37,057 bases of DNA, from positions 1-37,057 of the IMG/VR virus record IMGVR_UViG_3300038675_000965; one strand, 5' to 3'. Numbering within the stretch: the stretch's first letter is position 1; every line of letters begins with the position of its first letter. The notes below the pieces were generated by a model, which had not been told where the DNA came from, made no database searches, and saw only the letters and a program-made list of their open reading frames with translations. Positions 196 through 24,147 of the stretch are shown piece after piece. Source of the stretch: a virus. Lineage: Duplodnaviria > Caudoviricetes. Position numbers and translations under genes: made by a program.

Positions 196-1062
196 TCAAT
201 TCCTTTTTTCGCAATAAATGGGGTGCTTGACCGCAAGAGTCAAAAGCAACCCATTTTTAAATTCTTCTGGTGTTTGATATTTTAAACTTGAGTGTGGTCT
301 TACCTTATTATAGTCATTCCGCCACTCTTCCATTAGTTCTCTAGCTTCACTTAAGCTTAAAAACCAATTTTCGTTTAAAAACTCATCTCTAATTTTGCCG
401 TTTAAACTTTCAGTAAAGCCGTTTTCTGATGGTTTACCTGGACTTATATAATGCCAGTCGACGTTTTGCTTTACAGCCCATTTTAAAACCGCCTTACTGG
501 TAAATTCTGTGCCGTTATCGCTTACAATACATAAAGGCTTGCCTCTTTGGGATATTAGCTCATCAAGCTCCCTTGCAACCCTTATTCCGCCTATAGAAAT
601 ATCAGCAACAAGCTTTAAGCATTCTCTAGAACATTGATCCATTACCCCAAATATTCTAAATCTTCTGCCATCAGATAAAGCATCACTCATAAAGTCGAGC
701 GACCAGACTTGATTTATCTTGTCGGGCTTAGGCAAGGGTGTTCTTGTGCCAATGGCTCTTTTCCTGCCTTTTCTTTTCATAACCGATAAGCCTTCTTCTT
801 TGTAAATTCTATAAACCTTTTTAAGATTGCAGTAAAAACCTTCTCTCTTAAGAAGAATGGCAAGCCGTTTATAACCAAAACGCCTCCTCTCTAAAGCTAA
901 TTCCTTCAGCCTTTTACGAAGCTTTGGGTCATCAATCTTTGTGCTGATATAATTAATTCTCCTGCGGGAAGCGGATAAAATATCGCAAACCCTCCTGACG
1001 CTTACCTTATATCCATTTAAAAGATACTTGGCTAAATCCCTACGCACAGAAGGGCTTACCAC
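196..1062 (-). CDS. IS3-family transposase OrfB (rve/DDE integrase core)
   Basis: WSLDF, SDNGTEF and [23 protein letters not shown] motifs. Confidence 0.95.
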
Positions 1063-7940: not shown

Positions 7941-8563
7941 AAGGAAAAATTATGAGCGAAGAATTAAACAACTATATGAAAGATGCTAAAGGGAGGCTTG
8001 TTCCCGAAAGCATGGTCAGGGATACCGATAAGCTGGAAGACCAGCTGGTTAAAAAGATTATGGGTTATGCTGATGAATTGTCGGCACAAATCGCCAGATT
8101 TAAAGGTCATTCCTTTGATGACGTTAACACTTTTATGGATATTTTAGCTGAAAAGTACGGGGTTAAAAGAGGCGGAAGCAAAGGCAATCTTACCTTTACC
8201 AGCTATGACGGCACTATGAAAGTAACGGTTCAAGTTGCGGAGCATCTTGAATTTGGTAATGAACTACAAGTTGCCAAGCAGTTGGTTGATGAGTGCATTG
8301 CTAAATGGTCGCAAGATTCAAACGATAAGATAAGAACTCTGGTTGACCATGCGTTTCGGGTTGATAAAGAGGGCAAAATCAATCGTGAAGCCCTATTCGC
8401 CTTAAGACGTCTCAGCATTGAAGATGAAAACTGGCAGAGAGCCATGTCGGCTTTAACCGACAGCATCAGAATTGCTGGAAGTAAGATTTATATCAGGTTT
8501 TATAAACGAAACAGTCCAGAAGAAAAGTGGACGGCTTTAACCATTGATTTAGCGGCGGCATAG
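7937..8563 (+). CDS. DUF3164-family Mu-like phage protein
   Basis: YMKDAKGRLVP..KGNLTFTSYDG..AFRVDKEGKIN..W.RAM.A..DS....GSK.YIRFY; start may be 7952. Confidence 0.85.
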   Translation: MKGKIMSEELNNYMKDAKGRLVPESMVRDTDKLEDQLVKKIMGYADELSAQIARFKGHSFDDVNTFMDILAEKYGVKRGGSKGNLTFTSYDGTMKVTVQVAEHLEFGNELQVAKQLVDECIAKWSQDSNDKIRTLVDHAFRVDKEGKINREALFALRRLSIEDENWQRAMSALTDSIRIAGSKIYIRFYKRNSPEEKWTALTIDLAAA

Positions 8564-8633
8564 GCGAAACGCAGAGGGCTTTGCTCTTTGCGTCTTGGAA
8601 ATATGGTTGCTTCCAACTGATGAGCCAGACCAT
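8563..8633 (+). ncRNA. Type II hammerhead ribozyme
   Basis: GGC-GAAA, stem III (8570-8592), GUC cleavage triplet 8592-8594, stem I TTGGAA/TTCCAA, core CTGATGA 8617-8623, GCC closing stem II, pseudoknot ATGGT/ACCAT. Confidence 0.9.
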
Positions 8634-9006
8634 GAAAGATTATGAAATGATTATAGAATTTGTTTTGTTTGCCAAAAAACTTGAGGGTGATGAACCTTTA
8701 AAAGCAGAGGCTTTGCTTTCGGCAGTAATCGGCTATGCGTCTGGGGTTTTGGGAATAGATAAAACTAAAAATCTTATTTTTGAGACGGTTGGAGCTATTA
8801 AAAAAAGCACTAATATTGTGGCAAAACCTAAACTTTCTGCGGAAGAAACGGCAAAACTAATCAACCGTTCAAGGAGCTTTTTTTATAAAAATTTTGAACG
8901 TTTGATTGTAGAGCAAGATTTTCCTTTGCCGATTGCTGGAGAAGCCAAATTAAGCTGGAGCAACCAAGCAGTTAATGACTGGTTAGAGGAGAAAAATCAT
9001 GTCTGA
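8632..9006 (+). CDS. Protein with a C-terminal AlpA/excisionase-like HTH
   Basis: LSAEETAKLINRSRSFFY..FPLPI..WSNQAVNDWL; start uncertain (8620, 8632 or 8647). Confidence 0.6.
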   Translation: MKDYEMIIEFVLFAKKLEGDEPLKAEALLSAVIGYASGVLGIDKTKNLIFETVGAIKKSTNIVAKPKLSAEETAKLINRSRSFFYKNFERLIVEQDFPLPIAGEAKLSWSNQAVNDWLEEKNHV

Positions 9007-15416: not shown

Positions 15417-16930
15417 CGGGAAGCCTGCCAGAAGTTTTTCTGCCCTATCAACAAAGGCTTATGGCAGGAGTTTATGCTTATCATGTGGTTGTGGTCGAAA
15501 AATCCCGCCGAACGGGTTATTCATGGGCGGCGGCTAATATTGCAACGTTACTTGCAGGAGCAGAAAAAGCCGCAGGCGGAATGGACGTTTACTACATGGG
15601 CTATAATTTAGAAATGGCTCGTGAATTTGTTGATTATGTCGGCGATTTTGCTCGAATGCTTGGAACAAGCATTGTTTCTTCAGGAGAGTTTTTGTTTCCC
15701 GACCCTGATAAACCTGACAGCTACATTAAAGCTTTCAGGGTTGAGTTTGCGTCAGGCTTTAAAGTTGTGGCTCTGCCATCATCGCCCCGTTCACTTCGAG
15801 GCATGCAGGGTTTTGTTATTATTGATGAAGCCGCTTTTCATGATGACTTGGACAAATTGTTAAAAGCAGCTTTTGCTTTGTTAATATGGGGCGGCAAAGT
15901 TTTAATAATTTCTACTCATAACGGTGATGATAATCCTTTTAACAATCTGATTAACGAAATCCGAGAAGGCAAAAAACCTTATCATTTAGAGCGATGCACG
16001 TTTGAAGATGCATTGAAAGATGGGCTTTATAAAAGAATTTGTTTTGTTCAAGGAAAGATTTGGACAAGTTCAACTGAAGCAAAATGGACTGAGGAAATCA
16101 GGGCTTTTTACGGCGATGATGCTGAAGAAGAGCTTGACTGCGTGCCATCAAAAGGCGGCGGAAAGTATCTTGCCAGAGCTTCGATTGAGGCTTGCTCGGA
16201 TAAAGATGTTCCAGTTATCAGGCTGGATTTGCCAAATAGTTTTGCACTAATGCCTGAACATATCAGGACGGCTGAAATTAAAGACTTCTGCAGTGATAAA
16301 TTAAAACCGATTTTACTTTCGCTTGATAAAGACTGTCCTAGCTTTTTTGGACAGGATTTTGGCAGATTTGGAGATTTGTCGGTTTTGTGGCCGATTCAAA
16401 TAACAAAGTCAATGGTTAAGAAAACCCCGTTTGTTTTGGAGCTTCGCAACGTTCCTTTTGAGAGCCAGAAAGAAATTTTGTTTTACGTGGTGGACAGACT
16501 GCCGAGATTTTCGGGCGGAGCATTGGACGCTAAAGGCAATGGCTCTTATTTAGCTGAAGTTGCTTGGCAGAAATACGGCGAAGGTATGATTGAAAAAGTT
16601 AATTTTACAACTGAATGGTACCGAGAAAATATGCCTAAAATGAAGGCGGATTTTGACGATAAGAATGTAACGGTTCCTTATGATCGGGATATTTTTACCG
16701 ATTTTAATCAAATAGTTATGGAAAAAGGGGTCGCTAGAGTTCCTGAAGCCCGAACTAAAGATGCCAAAGGCAAGCAAAGACATGGCGATAGTGCAATTTC
16801 ATTGGCACTCGCAATTTTTGCGAGTTTAATGGAAACTTTTTCTTACGGCTATGAAACCCTTCGAGATGAAGAACAAAAACAAGGTTATGAAAATGACAAT
16901 AATCAAAGATTTGGAGGCGGAGCATGGTAA
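15413..16930 (+). CDS. Terminase large subunit (Mu gp28-like)
   Basis: LPYQ, EKSRRTGYS, IIDEAAF, ISTHNG, GQDFGR, HGDSA. Confidence 0.93.
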   Translation: MTGSLPEVFLPYQQRLMAGVYAYHVVVVEKSRRTGYSWAAANIATLLAGAEKAAGGMDVYYMGYNLEMAREFVDYVGDFARMLGTSIVSSGEFLFPDPDKPDSYIKAFRVEFASGFKVVALPSSPRSLRGMQGFVIIDEAAFHDDLDKLLKAAFALLIWGGKVLIISTHNGDDNPFNNLINEIREGKKPYHLERCTFEDALKDGLYKRICFVQGKIWTSSTEAKWTEEIRAFYGDDAEEELDCVPSKGGGKYLARASIEACSDKDVPVIRLDLPNSFALMPEHIRTAEIKDFCSDKLKPILLSLDKDCPSFFGQDFGRFGDLSVLWPIQITKSMVKKTPFVLELRNVPFESQKEILFYVVDRLPRFSGGALDAKGNGSYLAEVAWQKYGEGMIEKVNFTTEWYRENMPKMKADFDDKNVTVPYDRDIFTDFNQIVMEKGVARVPEARTKDAKGKQRHGDSAISLALAIFASLMETFSYGYETLRDEEQKQGYENDNNQRFGGGAW

Positions 16931-18474
16931 ACCCTGTTTTATACGGTGCTGACGGACAGCCGATTAATCGCAAAGCTCTTTTAGAAGAGGAAGCAGGAAC
17001 AACGCTTTCAGGCATTCGTTCAGTTTTGAGCGATTATTCATCTTCGGGGTTAACTCCTCAGAAACTTGCGACTTTATTAAAAGAATCAATCGACGGCGAC
17101 CCCGAAAGATATTTGGCTTTAGCTGAAGAAATGGAAGAAAAGGATCTTCATTATTTAGCGGTTATCGGCACCCGCAAAAGAGCTGTCAGCCAACTTGATA
17201 TTACGGTTGAGCCTGCGGGCGATGATAAAAACGACATTGCCAATGCTGAACTTTTAGAAGAGTTTATCCGCCGTGAAAATTTAGAGGACGAACTGTTTGA
17301 TATTTTAGATGCGGTGGGCAAAGGGTTCTCTGCAACTGAAATTATTTGGGATTATTCAGAAAAACAATGGATGCCGAAAGAATTAAAATGGTGCGACCCA
17401 AGATGGTTTGATTTTGACAGGGAAACCAGACAAAAACTAATGCTTAAAACTGATAGCGGACTTATGCCGTTATCGCCTTATAAATTTATTAATTGCTCGA
17501 TTAAAGCAAAATCTGGATTGCCGATAAGAGGCGGACTTGCCAGAGCAACCGCTTGGGCATATTTATTTAAAAACTTTGATTTAAAAGGCTGGATAACCTT
17601 TGCAGAGGTTTATGGACAGCCGATAAGACTTGGCAAATACCATCCATCGGCAACGGAAACAGATAAAAGAACGTTACTTAGAGCGGTTGCCAATATTGGT
17701 TCTGATGCCGCCGCAATTATTCCTAATAATATGCTGATTGAATTTATTGAAGGTAAAGCTTCTGGTGGCACCGATATCTATGAAAAAATGGCAGATTATT
17801 TTGATAGGCAGGTTTCAAAAGCAGTACTCGGACAAACGACAACCACCGATGCAATCTCTGGCGGTCATGCAGTTTCAAAAGAACATCAGGAAGTTAGGGG
17901 CGATATTGAGCGGAGTGATGCTAAACAACTTGGTGCGGTGCTTAAAAGGGATTTAGTTGTTCCCTTAATTACACTTAACAGGGGTCCTCAAGATAGATAT
18001 CCATCAATTAAAATTGGTCGAGCCGATAAAACGGATTTAACTGCAATTCAAAGAGTTTTGGCAGTTACTCTTCCTCATGGGCTTAAAGTTTCTCAAAAAG
18101 ATGTTCGGTCTAAAATTGGACTTAAAGAACCTGACGGCGAAGATGATATTTTGGGAATAAGCAAGGTTTCTTCTGACCCTTTACCTGAAGAAGAAATGGC
18201 AACAGCAATGCAGTCATCAAAACCTCCATCGCCGATTGATCCTGATGAAATTGATTTGATGGTTAGGGAACTTTTGGAAGATACTTCCGAAGTTTTGGAG
18301 CCTTTAATCAAACCTGTTATTGAAGTGACGGAAAGCTCTAATTCTTATGAGGAATTAAAAGAAAAATTGTCCTCTGCCATTATGAAAATGGATACTTCCA
18401 AATTGCAGGAAGTATTAGAAAAAAGCAATTTTTCAGCAAGAATTGCAGGGCGAAGCGGATATGTTAAGGAATAA
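16924..18474 (+). CDS. Portal protein (Mu gp29, DUF935)
   Basis: EMEEKDLH, FAEVYGQPIRLGKY, SKAVLGQTTT, HQEVR.DI. Confidence 0.93.
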   Translation: MVNPVLYGADGQPINRKALLEEEAGTTLSGIRSVLSDYSSSGLTPQKLATLLKESIDGDPERYLALAEEMEEKDLHYLAVIGTRKRAVSQLDITVEPAGDDKNDIANAELLEEFIRRENLEDELFDILDAVGKGFSATEIIWDYSEKQWMPKELKWCDPRWFDFDRETRQKLMLKTDSGLMPLSPYKFINCSIKAKSGLPIRGGLARATAWAYLFKNFDLKGWITFAEVYGQPIRLGKYHPSATETDKRTLLRAVANIGSDAAAIIPNNMLIEFIEGKASGGTDIYEKMADYFDRQVSKAVLGQTTTTDAISGGHAVSKEHQEVRGDIERSDAKQLGAVLKRDLVVPLITLNRGPQDRYPSIKIGRADKTDLTAIQRVLAVTLPHGLKVSQKDVRSKIGLKEPDGEDDILGISKVSSDPLPEEEMATAMQSSKPPSPIDPDEIDLMVRELLEDTSEVLEPLIKPVIEVTESSNSYEELKEKLSSAIMKMDTSKLQEVLEKSNFSARIAGRSGYVKE

Positions 18475-18477
18475 AAA

Positions 18478-19794
18478 ATGGCAAAAGTTGGTCCTTCCAA
18501 ATTCACTCCTTCTGAAGCAGTAAAATTTTTTAAACAAAAAGGCTACGGCTTAAATTTTCATTGGCGGGACGTTGCCAAAGAAGAACATGCCAATGCCTTT
18601 TTTGTTTCAAAAGCAACAGGAATTGAAGTTTTAGAAACTTTTAAGACTGCAATTGAAAAAAGCCTTGAGAACGGAACAACTTTTGAAGATTTTAAAAAAG
18701 ACGTTGTGCCAACCCTCCAAAAGCTCGGCTGGATTGGCAAAGCCGAAATGTTTGACCCTCGATTTGGCAAAACCGAAGAAGTTCTGCTTGGAACTCCCCG
18801 CAGGCTTAAAGTTATTTATGATACTAATCTTCGGACAGCTTATTCTGCAGGTACGTGGGAGCGGATTTTAGATAATCAAAAAGCTTTTCCTTATCTTCGT
18901 TATTCGGCGGTTATGGATAGTCGAACCCGTCCTGAACATAGCGAACTGCACGGCATAACGCTACCTGTCGATGATCCTTTTTGGGATACTCATTACCCTC
19001 CTAACGGCTGGTTTTGCAGGTGTACAGTTATGCAAGTGAGCCGTGAGCGGCTGGAAGCCGAAGGCTGGCAGGTTTCAAAGTCTCCTGAAATAGAATATGT
19101 AAACTATAATGATAAAAGAAACGGGGTTATAATAAAAGTTCCAAAAGGAATTGACCCTTCGTTTGATTACAATGTCGGCAAAGCCAGACGCAATGCTTTT
19201 GTTCCGCCGTCATCAGGCGGCAGTCTAGGGTCGTCAACTCCTCATTTTGATTTTAAACCTTATGATTTGCCAGAAAATGTTTTAGTGCAGAAACTGCCGC
19301 CCATGCCGAAAGCTGAAACTATGCCTGCAAGCTTACTGTTGCCATCAGGCAAAGCTGAAGAATTTTACATGAATGAATTTTTAAAAGAATTTTCTGCAAG
19401 CACTTCAAAAGATGCGGTTTTTATTGATAAAACAGGTCAGCCGCTGGTTATCGGCAAGGGAATGTTTTTGTCCCTTGATGGTAAAAGCAAAGTTTTAAAG
19501 GCAGGCAGAGAGCCTTATTTAAAAGTTTTGGCGGAAACAATTAAAAACCCTGATGAAATCTGGTGGGTCTGGGAAAAAGGCAAGGTTACAGGAAACTGGC
19601 TTTTAAAAAGACGATATTTAAAACGATGGGAGGGAGATGGCGGTGTTAACGGGCTGGCAGTTTTTGAATGGAATAAAAAAAGCTGGCTTGGCATAACAAC
19701 ATTTGTACCGAGTAAAAGAGTCGATATAGATAAATATTTAAAAAATCAACGGCAGGGATTGCTTGCTTATTATAAAAAAACTCCCAGCCGATAG
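18478..19794 (+). CDS. MuF (SPP1 gp7-like) minor head protein with a C-terminal PBECR-like nuclease domain
   Basis: RRLKVIYDTN, DSRTRPEH, PPNGWFCRC; C-terminal REPYLKVLAETIKNPDEIW..RRYL..W.GITTF..YL..QRQG. Confidence 0.85.
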   Translation: MAKVGPSKFTPSEAVKFFKQKGYGLNFHWRDVAKEEHANAFFVSKATGIEVLETFKTAIEKSLENGTTFEDFKKDVVPTLQKLGWIGKAEMFDPRFGKTEEVLLGTPRRLKVIYDTNLRTAYSAGTWERILDNQKAFPYLRYSAVMDSRTRPEHSELHGITLPVDDPFWDTHYPPNGWFCRCTVMQVSRERLEAEGWQVSKSPEIEYVNYNDKRNGVIIKVPKGIDPSFDYNVGKARRNAFVPPSSGGSLGSSTPHFDFKPYDLPENVLVQKLPPMPKAETMPASLLLPSGKAEEFYMNEFLKEFSASTSKDAVFIDKTGQPLVIGKGMFLSLDGKSKVLKAGREPYLKVLAETIKNPDEIWWVWEKGKVTGNWLLKRRYLKRWEGDGGVNGLAVFEWNKKSWLGITTFVPSKRVDIDKYLKNQRQGLLAYYKKTPSR

Positions 19795-19870
19795 GAACTG
19801 GGAGTGTGTGAAAGAAGTTTGGACGTGTTTCCTATCTCACCATTAAACTTGCAGACACAAAATAATTATA
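19774..19870 (-). ncRNA. Candidate ~85-nt structured sRNA (kissing-loop) antisense to the MuF 3' end
   Basis: Minus-strand TATAAT (19865-19870), two hairpins with complementary loops, terminal stem plus U7. Confidence 0.55.
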
Positions 19871-20100
19871 AATCTACCGGGATAAAAAATCCATAAAAAA
19901 GATGTTTTTAAAAAACCGCCTCAAATGCGTTTAAATTTTTGAAGTCAAGTTTTAGGCTACAACTTAACCTATTTTTAAAAGATACGCACACAGACCCGTT
20001 TAGTGGGTGTTTAATTTTGATGTTTCAGATTGATTTTTTGTGCAGTGACAGATTTTTGATTTTTTAAAAACCCATGCCCAATCTTATTTAGAAAACATAA

Positions 20101-20149
20101 AACCATGACAAATGTCATGGTTATTGGCTGGTTTACTTGAATTTATAGT
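20101..20149 (+). promoter_or_regulatory. Late (head operon) promoter: activator palindrome plus -10
   Basis: AACCATGACA-AA-TGTCATGGTT perfect IR; TATAGT 26 nt after the TGACA-N2-TGTCA core. Confidence 0.7.
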
Positions 20150-20192
20150 CGCTCATTATGGTTTTTAAATCAATAGTTTTTTTTGAGGCGAC

Positions 20193-21233
20193 ATGAAAGA
20201 CAAAACTTTAATCGCAATTCATTCAGTTTCACTCGGCAATGAAGTTCCTTCGAGCATTCATATTCTGCCAAACGGTAAGTTTGACGGACGTGACGGCAGA
20301 GGACCTTATGTTGCAAGTGATTTAAAAAAAATTGTTGAAACTACTAACCATCTTTCAAGAGGTGTGGATATTGCCATAGATTATGAACATCAGTTTGATT
20401 ATGCGTCTTTAAACGGCAAGCCTGCACCCGCAGGCGGCTGGATTAAATCTTTAGAAATTAAAGAAGACGGCATTTGGGGAAATGTCGAATGGACGGAAGC
20501 GGCACATAAAATGATTGCTCAAAAAGAGTATCGTTATTTGTCGCCAGTATTCAGGTTTTTTCCTAAATCAGGTGAAATTCATTCTATCAGGGGAGCTTCG
20601 CTTACCAATAATCCCAACCTCTTGTTAACTTCACTAAATTCAATGGAGGAAAGCGAAAGTATGGATCCAAAACTTGGCAGTCAGCTTGCGACTGTGCTGG
20701 GACTTCCCGATACCGCAAAAGATGAGCAGATTGTCTCTGCGGTTTCGAAAGTCTTAAGCGAAAGCAAGCATTCGGCAGAAAATTTAGGCAAAGTTGCGAA
20801 AGCTCTAAAGCTTGATGAAAAAGCCGATGTTGAAACAGTTCTTGCAAGCATCAAACCAGTTGCAACAAATCCGCATGCAACCAATGACCCAACAAAGTTT
20901 GTGCCGTTTGAAAAGTTTAATGAAATTGCAACTGCTCTTAACTCTCTTCAAACGGAAGTTGCGGTTCAAAAAGCGACCGATGCGGTTAATTCTGCCATGA
21001 AAGAAGGTAAAATTACTCCTGCTTTAAAAGACTGGGCGATTTCAATGCATAAGGCTGACCCTGTTAAATTTGCGGAGTTTATTAAAAACCAGCCCGTTAT
21101 TGCAGGGACTTCCGAGCAAACCGCTAAACATTCTGCCGTATCTAAGCTTGATGACACGCAAATTGCGATATGCAAACAGCTTAATGTTTCGGAAGAAGAT
21201 TACCTCAAAGAACTTAATAAGGAGGTTAACTAA
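20193..21233 (+). CDS. Mu-like prohead protease I with an embedded scaffold Z (probable internal start 20661)
   Basis: IDYEHQ, APAGGWI, VEWT..A, YRYLSPVF, LTNNPNL; internal GGAGG..ATG MDPKL. Confidence 0.92.
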   Translation: MKDKTLIAIHSVSLGNEVPSSIHILPNGKFDGRDGRGPYVASDLKKIVETTNHLSRGVDIAIDYEHQFDYASLNGKPAPAGGWIKSLEIKEDGIWGNVEWTEAAHKMIAQKEYRYLSPVFRFFPKSGEIHSIRGASLTNNPNLLLTSLNSMEESESMDPKLGSQLATVLGLPDTAKDEQIVSAVSKVLSESKHSAENLGKVAKALKLDEKADVETVLASIKPVATNPHATNDPTKFVPFEKFNEIATALNSLQTEVAVQKATDAVNSAMKEGKITPALKDWAISMHKADPVKFAEFIKNQPVIAGTSEQTAKHSAVSKLDDTQIAICKQLNVSEEDYLKELNKEVN

Positions 21234-23664: not shown

Positions 23665-24147
23665 ATGGGCGTTAAAATAACAATTAATTCAACCGAACTT
23701 AAAAAAAATTTAGAAAAAATAGTTCAAAAAATAGATAATTTAAAACCTCTAATGGCTGATATCGGCTCGGAAATTGAGGCTTCAACTAAAAAAAGATTTG
23801 AAGATGAAGTCTCGCCTGCAGGAGAGAAATGGACACCTTCAATTGAAGCCTTATTAAACAACCGTAAAACTTTAAGTAAAAGCGGTCTTCTTAAAATCAG
23901 CATTCAAAAAAAAGTTTTAAACAAAAGCGTTTTGGTTGGAAGCGACAGAATTTATGCCGCTATTCAACAACTTGGAGGAAAAATTAGAGCTAAAAATACT
24001 CCAAATCTTGTTTTTAAAATTGGTGCAAAAATAATTCGTAAAAAAGAAGTTTATATTCCGCCTCGTCCTTATCTTGGAATTTCAAAAACAGATGAAAATT
24101 TGGTGGTGGCTCACATTAAAAGAGCGGTTTTGGAGGGCTTGTCATGA
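23665..24147 (+). CDS. Virion morphogenesis protein (Mu gpG-like)
   Basis: RFEDEVSPAGEKW, VGSDRIYAAIQQLGG, IPPRPYLGIS. Confidence 0.88.
   Translation: MGVKITINSTELKKNLEKIVQKIDNLKPLMADIGSEIEASTKKRFEDEVSPAGEKWTPSIEALLNNRKTLSKSGLLKISIQKKVLNKSVLVGSDRIYAAIQQLGGKIRAKNTPNLVFKIGAKIIRKKEVYIPPRPYLGISKTDENLVVAHIKRAVLEGLS

What the first reader, a model, noticed from the sequence alone, without database searches (positions are those of the whole stretch)
19300..19895. MuF-PBECR nuclease with no immunity ORF, followed by a kissing-loop sRNA: candidate RNA-antitoxin system
Seen: the MuF head protein carries a C-terminal extension resembling PBECR (Barnase/EndoU/colicin/RelE-like) RNase domains, and the next ~400 bp encode no immunity protein. 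Hairpin 1 is ACTCCCAG/CTGGGAGT (19780-87/19798-805) with loop CCGATAGGAA, which contains the MuF stop codon. Hairpin 2 (GTGT/ACAC, AAGTTT/AAACTT, GTG/CAC; 19806-19858) has loop TTTCCTATCT. The loops are complementary over 8 nt (GATAGGAA 19790-97 with TTCCTATC 19829-36). On the minus strand a perfect TATAAT (19865-70) lies just upstream and hairpin 1 is followed by U7, outlining a self-contained ~85-nt transcript; the -35 is weak. Known: MuF polymorphic toxins usually have a downstream protein immunity gene, and type III antitoxins are pseudoknotted RNAs that inhibit RNases. Inference: this RNA is the antitoxin, decoy substrate or cofactor of a virion-delivered nuclease.
Basis: partly seen in the sequence, partly recalled or inferred. 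Interest (0 to 1): 0.85.

Follow-up and report, generated by a model that had tools for sequence, protein, structure and literature searches.

The report
RNA immunity for phage head nuclease
Behind the gene for a phage head protein that carries a predicted RNA-cutting domain sits a conserved, about 85-base folded RNA gene on the opposite strand; related phages keep it while the predicted cutting site is intact and lack it where that site has decayed, so the RNA likely acts as the enzyme's antidote in place of the usual immunity protein, though neither transcript nor binding has been observed.

Summary
Observation confirmed and extended. MuF (18478-19794) ends in a PBECR2 domain and no immunity-sized ORF follows. 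In homologous loci the same two-hairpin unit follows the stop codon: loop-loop complementarity of 5 nt or more at a fixed spacing in 67 of 91 loci (cross-locus control 11.5%), with 51 different kissing sequences. The -10 box (95 of 119), -35 TTG (54 of 95), U-run and G-U pairs all point to the minus strand. The unit stays with PBECR2 when unrelated ORFs are inserted (9 loci) and when gpG is elsewhere (27 of 85). In 11 RNA-less loci the predicted active-site K338/K341/R344 are mostly lost while structural residues are kept; 7 losses on the tree, but the independent-pairs test is underpowered (p 0.125), and one intact protein lacks the RNA (L193). Best reading (0.6): a type III-like RNA antitoxin for a virion-borne nuclease. 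No Rfam match; an unnamed candidate in PMC10690425 may overlap it. No transcript, toxicity or binding was shown. The scan's notes held no earlier finding of this system.

The parts
18478..19794 (+). muF gene, 438 aa: MuF minor head/DNA-pilot domain plus C-terminal PBECR2, between portal (16924-18474) and Mu-like protease (20193-21233)
   Evidence: phrog_220, E 1e-95
18637..19032 (+). Phage_Mu_F domain (residues 54-185)
   Evidence: PF04233 E 1.9e-25
19375..19770 (+). PBECR2 domain (residues 300-431), predicted BECR-fold RNase
   Evidence: PF18810 E 1.2e-30; AF2 model pLDDT 91; best structural matches weak, Z 3.4-3.9, to colicin RNase domains
19489..19509 (+). K338, K341, R344 (R344 at the start of the N-terminal helix): predicted active-site residues, lost in RNA-less homologues
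   Evidence: layout (His or Arg in N-terminal helix, Ser/Thr in strand 4) from PMC5512222 section 19
19696..19698 (+). T407 on the last core strand, predicted active-site hydroxyl
19774..19858 (-). predicted ~85-nt small RNA (5' end inferred about 7 nt after the -10 box, at the start of P1)
   Evidence: (descriptor score 36.7, among the top five of 144 loci)
19888..19893 (-). -35 position TGGATT (17-nt spacer)
   Evidence: TTG at this spacing in 54 of 95 homologues vs 6 in a control window
19865..19870 (-). -10 box TATAAT
   Evidence: -10-like hexamer in 95 of 119 homologues vs 16 in a control window
19806..19858 (-). arm 1: P1 (19858-55 with 19809-06; 19850-45 with 19820-15), internal loop, P2 (19840-38 with 19827-25) and loop L2 (19837-28) holding GAUAGG
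19819..19822 (-). CCAA on the 3' side of the internal loop, the commonest 4-mer at this place in the family (44 occurrences over 90 loci); here it can partly pair in P1
19780..19805 (-). arm 2: P3 terminator hairpin (10 bp with two G-U) with loop L3 CCUAUC (19795-90) that kisses L2; overlaps the last four muF codons
19774..19779 (-). U-run of the intrinsic terminator
19795..20192 (.). gap to the protease gene; no ORF over 42 aa

Best explanation
The locus is a conserved two-part module, a MuF head protein with a predicted PBECR2 RNase and a predicted ~85-nt opposite-strand RNA with a covarying kissing loop, and the RNA most likely binds and inhibits the nuclease, standing in for the immunity protein of other MuF toxins. 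Shown by comparison: the RNA's fold (long arm P1-internal loop-P2 and terminator arm P3, joined tip to tip by a ~6-bp kiss), its own sigma-70-type promoter and terminator on the minus strand, its linkage to PBECR2 rather than to the next gene, and its absence where the predicted active site has decayed. Inferred: the promoter is a host-type one, so the RNA would be made in the lysogen and soon after DNA entry, before and independently of the late operon; it would hold MuF-PBECR2 inactive while heads are built and neutralise the few copies that are injected with the DNA, so that the nuclease harms only cells that do not express the phage genome (non-lysogens that destroy or fail to establish it). 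The compact shape with an unpaired CCAA-like segment may act as a tRNA-like decoy for a colicin-D/E5-type site; that step is the weakest.
For: Kiss of 5 nt or more at 18-30 nt after H1 in 67 of 91 loci vs 11.5% of cross-locus pairs and 3 and 9 of 91 in shifted windows; 35 of 49 with one locus per loose cluster; 51 distinct kissing sequences, with changes inside single clades. On a 30-sequence alignment all 6 kissing pairs and 30 of 32 pairs show double-sided changes, 92% of kissing cells pair, 0 of 500 shuffles reach this. Strand: -10 in 95 of 119 (control 16; plus strand 30); -35 TTG 54 of 95 vs 6; oppositions inside H1 are 24 A-C (G-U on minus) vs 1 G-T. Linkage: RNA kept 250-900 nt downstream behind unrelated inserted ORFs in 9 loci (L014, L033, L036, L159, L165, L251, L261, L282, L291; L033, L159 and L291 judged partly by eye); 27 of 85 RNA loci have no gpG-like gene within 300 nt and 21 of those 27 keep the -10. 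Co-loss: in 11 RNA-less loci K338 is kept in 2, K341 in 1, R/H344 in 3, vs 97, 92, 98 of 99 RNA-bearing loci, while D317, F330, A352, R378, Y380 and R425 are kept in 11 of 11; 7 separate losses on the tree; loci found afterwards follow the rule (Pseudomonas phage Fc02, L370, L389: no RNA, site decayed; RR1-B, RcWaterboi and five others: RNA and site intact). No complementarity to the muF start region (8 nt or more in 4 of 48 vs 9.3% control). [quoted passage not shown]
Against: Nothing here shows transcription, RNase activity, toxicity or binding. The phylogeny-aware test has only 5 pairs on well-supported branches (4 same direction, p 0.125), and starred branches force only 3 of the 7 losses. 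L193 has an intact site and no RNA in the 1,793 nt available; L311 has lost the promoter and 5' half and keeps K-K-H-T (its nearest kin have R at 344). Co-loss fits a cofactor/RNP reading equally well, since it does not give the order of events. Structural similarity to known RNases is weak (Z under 4), and PMC5512222 suggests PBECRs may cut mRNA or crRNA rather than be host toxins. CCAA is only partly conserved and can pair in the window's own RNA. A covariance model from GC-rich clades does not detect the window's RNA (E 1.2), so its membership rests on position and architecture. About 19 loci carry other designs without the terminator-loop kiss. Folding energy does not choose a strand (minus better in 66, plus in 51 of 119). 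Most loci were retrieved by peptide patterns, one of which includes T407.
Confidence: 0.6

Rival explanations
1. Cis-antisense antitoxin (type I-like, as in convergent 3'-overlapping pairs): the RNA pairs with the late polycistronic mRNA just behind muF and lowers MuF-PBECR2 synthesis, for instance through RNase III cleavage or transcriptional interference in the lysogen.
For: Convergent layout with a shared hairpin at the muF stop resembles type I loci described in PMC8167048; full complementarity to read-through mRNA is automatic; co-loss with the active site is expected here too.
Against: Antisense pairing needs no intramolecular kiss, which hides both loops, yet the kiss covaries and in one clade is rebuilt with a different partner strand; the RNA lies 250-900 nt away behind another ORF in 9 loci; no match to the muF start; it could not protect against protein delivered by a virion.
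Confidence: 0.17
2. The RNA is a cofactor, dedicated substrate or packaged partner of PBECR2: the two work as a ribonucleoprotein (for instance against a host defence RNA or protein), and K338/K341/R344 are RNA-binding residues that decay once the RNA is lost.
For: Same co-loss pattern; the domain is rich in conserved Arg/Lys; L193 and L311 (RNA missing or broken, protein near intact) fit an RNA-first order; PMC5512222 proposes RNA binding for inactive PBECR of Mu gp30.
Against: The lost residues match the predicted catalytic layout, not the other conserved arginines R378 and R425; RNA sequence is barely conserved beyond its shape, and at least three designs serve one protein family; no variable guide segment with targets was found in the window.
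Confidence: 0.15
3. The element regulates the downstream gene (gpG or the protease operon) as an antisense promoter or leader over its ribosome-binding site, and has nothing to do with PBECR2.
For: In 58 of 85 loci a gpG-like gene starts within 300 nt, often with its Shine-Dalgarno next to the -10 box; PMC10690425 lists a candidate RNA as lying within 25 bp upstream of Phage_tail_S genes.
Against: 27 of 85 loci, the window among them, keep it without gpG; RNA-less loci still have gpG directly after muF; presence tracks the PBECR2 site.
Confidence: 0.05
4. Only a terminator plus chance pairing.
For: H1 is a standard intrinsic terminator on the minus strand; two model hits in 150 genomes were plain terminators.
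Against: Covariation, fixed spacing, conserved promoter and co-loss.
Confidence: 0.03

Closest known systems
MuF polymorphic toxins with protein immunity (PMC5576092, passages read; Apk2 toxins PMC12226406, abstract; BECR-Tox3/DUF6883 with DUF4926, bioRxiv 10.64898/2026.08.28.747851, section 10)
   Same: N-terminal MuF domain after the portal gene of a temperate phage, C-terminal predicted toxin domain, a dedicated partner directly downstream.
   Different: The partner is a non-coding RNA gene on the opposite strand with its own promoter; the gap to the next gene (103 nt in RR1-B and RcWaterboi) leaves no room for an immunity protein, and the ORFs inserted there in 9 loci looked unrelated to each other except within one clade.
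Type III toxin-antitoxin systems ToxIN/AbiQ, CptIN, TenpIN (PMC8167048, passages read; pseudoknot fold of ToxI recalled)
   Same: A structured RNA with a tertiary loop pairing is proposed to bind and inhibit an endoribonuclease.
   Different: Single copy, no tandem repeats, downstream and convergent instead of upstream and co-transcribed, kissing loop through its own terminator hairpin, toxin of the PBECR2 family fused to a virion protein.
Type I systems with convergent 3'-overlapping antitoxin RNA, e.g. Fst/RNAII (PMC8167048, passages read)
   Same: Convergent small RNA sharing a hairpin with the toxin gene's 3' end.
   Different: Toxin is a 438-aa virion protein, not a small peptide; no repeat or complement to the toxin's start region; conserved tertiary fold; tolerates displacement.
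PBECR2 (PF18810) and the inactive MuF-C domain of Mu gp30 (PMC5512222, section 19 read)
   Same: The protein is a PBECR2 member; decayed, RNA-less versions parallel the inactive PBECR of Mu.
   Different: That paper's passages that I read name no RNA partner or immunity factor for PBECR domains.
Unnamed candidate RNAs DNAVirus_1035, _615, _4683 (PMC10690425, supplement rows read)
   Same: 76 nt, 139 sequences, proteobacterial phages, within 25 bp of Phage_tail_S/COG5005 genes in 33 cases, with overlapping opposite-strand candidates: position and hosts fit part of this family.
   Different: Identity could not be checked (alignment files unreadable); listed only as possibly cis-regulatory for the downstream gene, with no kiss, strand assignment or link to PBECR2 in what I saw.

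Membership tests
PBECR2 (PF18810) | Profile match above the curated cut-off | tested here: met
   106.6 bits vs 27.1, profile 1-119 of 120
PBECR2 (PF18810) | [quoted passage not shown] | tested here: met
   R344 just before helix 75-86 of the model and T407 in strand 133-139; kept in 98 and 99 of 99 RNA-bearing loci; mapping to the published columns is my inference from the text
BECR-fold RNase | Fold match to solved BECR RNases | tested here: inconclusive
   Top rows are colicin-type RNase domains (3ao9 Z 3.9, rmsd 3.6, 87 aligned; 5znm Z 3.6), tied with unrelated rows
BECR-fold RNase | RNA cleavage activity | not testable with these tools
   needs an assay
MuF polymorphic toxin | MuF domain after the portal gene with a C-terminal effector domain, in a temperate phage | tested here: met
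   (portal, Mu transposase, gpT in the same genome)
MuF polymorphic toxin | Small immunity ORF directly downstream | tested here: not met
   about 100-nt gaps filled by the RNA in homologues
MuF polymorphic toxin | Toxicity and packaging in the virion | not testable with these tools
   inferred from family knowledge only
Type III TA (ToxIN, CptIN, TenpIN) | Toxin of the ToxN/CptN/TenpN families | tested here: not met
   Pfam, PHROG and PADLOC scans give only MuF/PBECR2 and head-protein families
Type III TA (ToxIN, CptIN, TenpIN) | Tandem-repeat antitoxin upstream of the toxin, one promoter, terminator between | tested here: not met
   single-copy RNA, downstream, opposite strand; no Rfam match
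Type III TA (ToxIN, CptIN, TenpIN) | RNA inhibits the toxin by binding it | not testable with these tools
   no protein-RNA folding offered; needs experiment
Type I TA, convergent antisense | Antitoxin complementary to toxin mRNA | tested here: inconclusive
   complementary to read-through mRNA by position; overlap with the coding sequence is a few codons at most and nil in displaced loci; no match to the start region
Type I TA, convergent antisense | Small toxic peptide | tested here: not met
   438-aa two-domain protein

The most novel reading that the evidence does not exclude
Proteobacterial Mu-like phages use RNA, not protein, as the immunity factor of a virion-delivered polymorphic toxin: a constitutively made, tRNA-like kissing-loop RNA plugs the PBECR2 site, so the injected nuclease is a dead-man's switch that fires when the incoming genome is destroyed or silenced and spares lysogens. 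PBECR domains in general, for which no immunity genes are described, may be paired with such RNAs, since more distant PBECR2 members also show structured non-coding stretches of several designs behind their stop codons.
Probability: 0.4. Interest if true: 0.93.

Novelty: new variant of a known kind. Interest (0 to 1): 0.86.

Why it matters
Only three families of protein-binding RNA antitoxins are described in the review I read, all repeat-encoded and upstream of ToxN-like toxins. A single-copy, convergent, kissing-loop RNA paired with a virion-fused BECR domain would be a fourth architecture and, as far as my searches reach, the first RNA immunity for a polymorphic toxin. It answers an open point in the MuF literature (whether the uncharacterised C-terminal extensions of proteobacterial MuFs are toxins, and what protects the producer; PMC5576092), gives a sequence rule for telling active from decayed PBECR2 domains, and is testable at once because cultured phages carry the intact module (RcWaterboi, RR1-B) and a natural RNA-less, decayed form (Fc02).

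Tried and rejected
Rfam: no family at the element in the window (best e-value rows GcvB/MicC are terminator look-alikes far below cut-off) or in 40 homologous loci. Sequencing runs: no RNA holder was listed; this is no evidence either way. The search for related loci with alignments A1/A2 could not run, so loci came from peptide-pattern scans and profile searches. Foldseek on PDB and BFVD gave nothing at E 0.001; no PDB sequence relative; Atlas neighbours are PBECR3 (0.91, 66% of members) and MuF_C clusters. Covariance model R1 over 150 genomes of one betaproteobacterial family gave the known copy beside PBECR2 and two hits that were plain terminators; it scored only 29 candidates per genome and missed true copies seen, so it does not establish that the RNA never occurs away from PBECR2. 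R1 does not find the window's RNA; a second seed of AT-rich relatives aligned out of register and no second model was built; the broad alignment A3 was likewise unusable. Trans targets in the window: no match over 12 nt outside the locus, none at gene starts that I followed up. Ribozyme reading dropped: no invariant core, only partial CCAA. Rows left out of counts: L199 (false hit), L212 and L129 (truncated or frameshifted copies); L324 and L203 lack the site columns (in one search they count as 'lost', so the RNA-less figure with data is 9 of 9, and 7 of the 9 'lost' among 124 RNA-bearing loci are R344H); the 124 'present' loci were assigned partly by eye, whereas the 99 passed the descriptor. 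Not in print: searches 'PBECR2' (1 paper), 'PBECR' (4) and searches showed no description of this RNA; subscription journals are largely outside the library, and the alignments of PMC10690425 and the bioRxiv supplements could not be read. Earlier scan notes: nothing on this system; the kissing-loop notes concern leaders upstream of homing-endonuclease genes.

Full report
Setting. The window is a near-complete Mu-like temperate phage record: Mu transposase, GemA, Mor, terminase, portal, MuF, protease I and gpT. MuF (18478-19794, 438 aa) has Phage_Mu_F at residues 54-185 and PBECR2 at 300-431 (E 1.2e-30). The next gene starts 398 nt later; the gap has no ORF over 42 aa. The gpG homologue, which follows muF in most Mu-like phages, lies at 23665-24147.

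Observation. An 8-nt loop complement appears in 39 of 20,000 shuffles. On the minus strand H1 is a 10-bp terminator stem with two G-U pairs and a 6-nt loop CCUAUC, complementary to GAUAGG in the other loop.

Homologues. One protein scan and three pattern scans gave 358 loci; 306 held a PBECR2 match, 231 were unique, 184 had 130 nt or more downstream, and 144 representatives remained at 80% identity. Of these 117 have a hairpin near the stop and 91 a loop of 6 nt or more. In 67 of the 91 a perfect complement of 5 nt or more to that loop starts 18-30 nt after the hairpin, against 11.5% of cross-locus pairings and 3 and 9 of 91 in shifted windows; at 6 nt, 43 of 91 against 2.7%; with one locus per loose cluster, 35 of 49. 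The kissing sequences take 51 different forms and change within clades. On a 30-sequence alignment with a structure I drew from one member, all four helices show double-sided changes, the kiss in 6 of 6 pairs with 92% of cells paired; relatedness inflates such counts, the slid controls are far lower.

Strand and anatomy. A -10-like hexamer lies just beyond the second hairpin on the minus strand in 95 of 119 loci (control window 16, plus strand 30), TTG at -35 spacing in 54 of 95 (control 6), and oppositions inside the terminator stem are 24 A-C to 1 G-T in plus-strand letters, i.e. G-U on the minus strand. Folding energy alone does not discriminate. The RNA reads: P1 (10-13 bp, starting about at +1), internal loop with CCAA-like bases on its 3' side (YCRA or CCA in 76 of 90, vs 26 on the other side), P2 (about 4 bp) with 6-nt L2, P1', 0-2 nt, terminator P3 with L3, U-run. 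The window scores 36.7 on a descriptor of this design, in the top five; 106 of 141 loci score above the 95th percentile of coding-region controls. A covariance model from GC-rich clades finds those clades but not the window's AT-rich copy. Two clades keep promoter, terminator and position but change the fold: 12 loci have no kiss and a conserved CUACUGC motif, and 7, among them sphingomonad loci, pair L2 with a 5' strand that covaries with it (by eye).

What it is tied to. In 9 loci an ORF is inserted after the muF stop; the RNA is found behind it, 250-900 nt away. In 27 of 85 loci no gpG-like gene follows within 300 nt, and 21 of these keep the -10. Where gpG abuts muF and no RNA exists, the protein has changed at K338, K341 or R344: kept in 2, 1 and 3 of 11 against 97, 92 and 98 of 99, while D317, F330, A352, R378, Y380 and R425 are kept in all 11 (first seen). 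[quoted passage not shown] The tree needs 7 losses, 3 forced by starred branches; independent pairs go the same way 4 times in 5 and almost never the other way, p 0.125, while a control trait never does. Loci fetched later agree: phage Fc02, L370 and L389 lack the RNA and have decayed sites; RR1-B, RcWaterboi, YO108_2, L366, L367, L369 and L371 have both. Against: L193 is intact without RNA in 1,793 nt; L311 has lost promoter and 5' half with R344H; L170 keeps the RNA with K338T; 7 RNA-bearing loci have H344.

Mechanism. Shown: a conserved minus-strand RNA gene with a tertiary contact, linked to an intact PBECR2 site. Inferred: the domain is an RNase harmful to the producer; the RNA neutralises it. 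Direct binding is preferred over antisense action because a kiss buries the loops an antisense RNA would use, the contact is rebuilt with another partner in one clade, the RNA tolerates displacement, and it has no match to the muF start (4 of 48 vs 9.3%). A cofactor reading predicts the same co-loss and cannot be excluded. A host-type promoter would supply RNA in lysogens and early in infection, which suits immunity against a protein delivered with the DNA, as proposed for MuF toxins (PMC5576092 passages). The fold match to colicin RNases is weak (3ao9 as colicin E5 is my recall), so a tRNA target and tRNA mimicry are guesses.

Known or new. It is a PBECR2/MuF protein by profile, but fails the immunity-ORF feature of MuF toxins (89.4% of 191 have one) and the defining layout and toxin families of type III systems (PMC8167048 passages). 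No Rfam family matches and nine literature searches found no description. An unnamed candidate, DNAVirus_1035 of PMC10690425, sits upstream of gpG-like genes in similar hosts and may be part of this family; its sequences were unreadable. More distant PBECR2 members picked by profile in 802 alpha- and gammaproteobacterial-class genomes often show similar or other structured stretches behind the stop; this was read by eye and not counted.

Verdict. A real, widespread and apparently undescribed RNA-protein pair; probability about 0.9 that the RNA is functional and tied to PBECR2, 0.6 that it is a protein-binding antitoxin. New variant of a known kind; interest 0.86.

Noticed in passing
window 8562-8634 (+): Rfam Hammerhead_II match just at the cut-off (37.2 bits), starting at the stop of the DUF3164 gene, with GAAAC and CUGAUGA cores.
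   Followed up: no
window 196-1062 (-): Integrase-core/HTH_21 transposase at the left end, either an insertion sequence or host DNA packaged at a Mu-type end.
   Followed up: no
window 20101-20122: 9-bp inverted repeat upstream of the protease gene, scored as a minus-strand terminator; could be a late-promoter operator.
   Followed up: no
window 23665-24147: gpG-like gene sits in the neck/tail block instead of after muF.
   Followed up: partly
L043, L064, L126, L133, L164, L183, L007 (and L081), 0-140 nt after the stop: Variant RNA in which L2 pairs with a 5' strand (ACCGC/GCGGU, ACCAC/GUGGU) instead of the terminator loop.
   Followed up: partly
L005, L006, L008, L031, L179, L248, L291, L300, L310, L317, L319, L356: Second RNA design at the same place, no kiss, conserved GACUG-hairpin-CUACUGCNCARUA, in a clade whose close kin carry the kissing type.
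   Followed up: partly
L391, L406, L408 and L397, L401, after the stop: Distant PBECR2 members share other conserved non-coding stretches, no Rfam match for those scanned.
   Followed up: partly
L014, L159, L165, L033, L036, L251, L261, L282, L291: The gap between muF stop and RNA is an insertion spot for extra genes (predicted exported proteins, a GapR-like ORF by my recall, others).
   Followed up: partly
L258, L271, L274, L280, L294, L329 with L324, L341: An R344H clade keeps the RNA and the RNA-less pair L324/L341 branches from inside it, the order expected if the toxin weakens first.
   Followed up: partly
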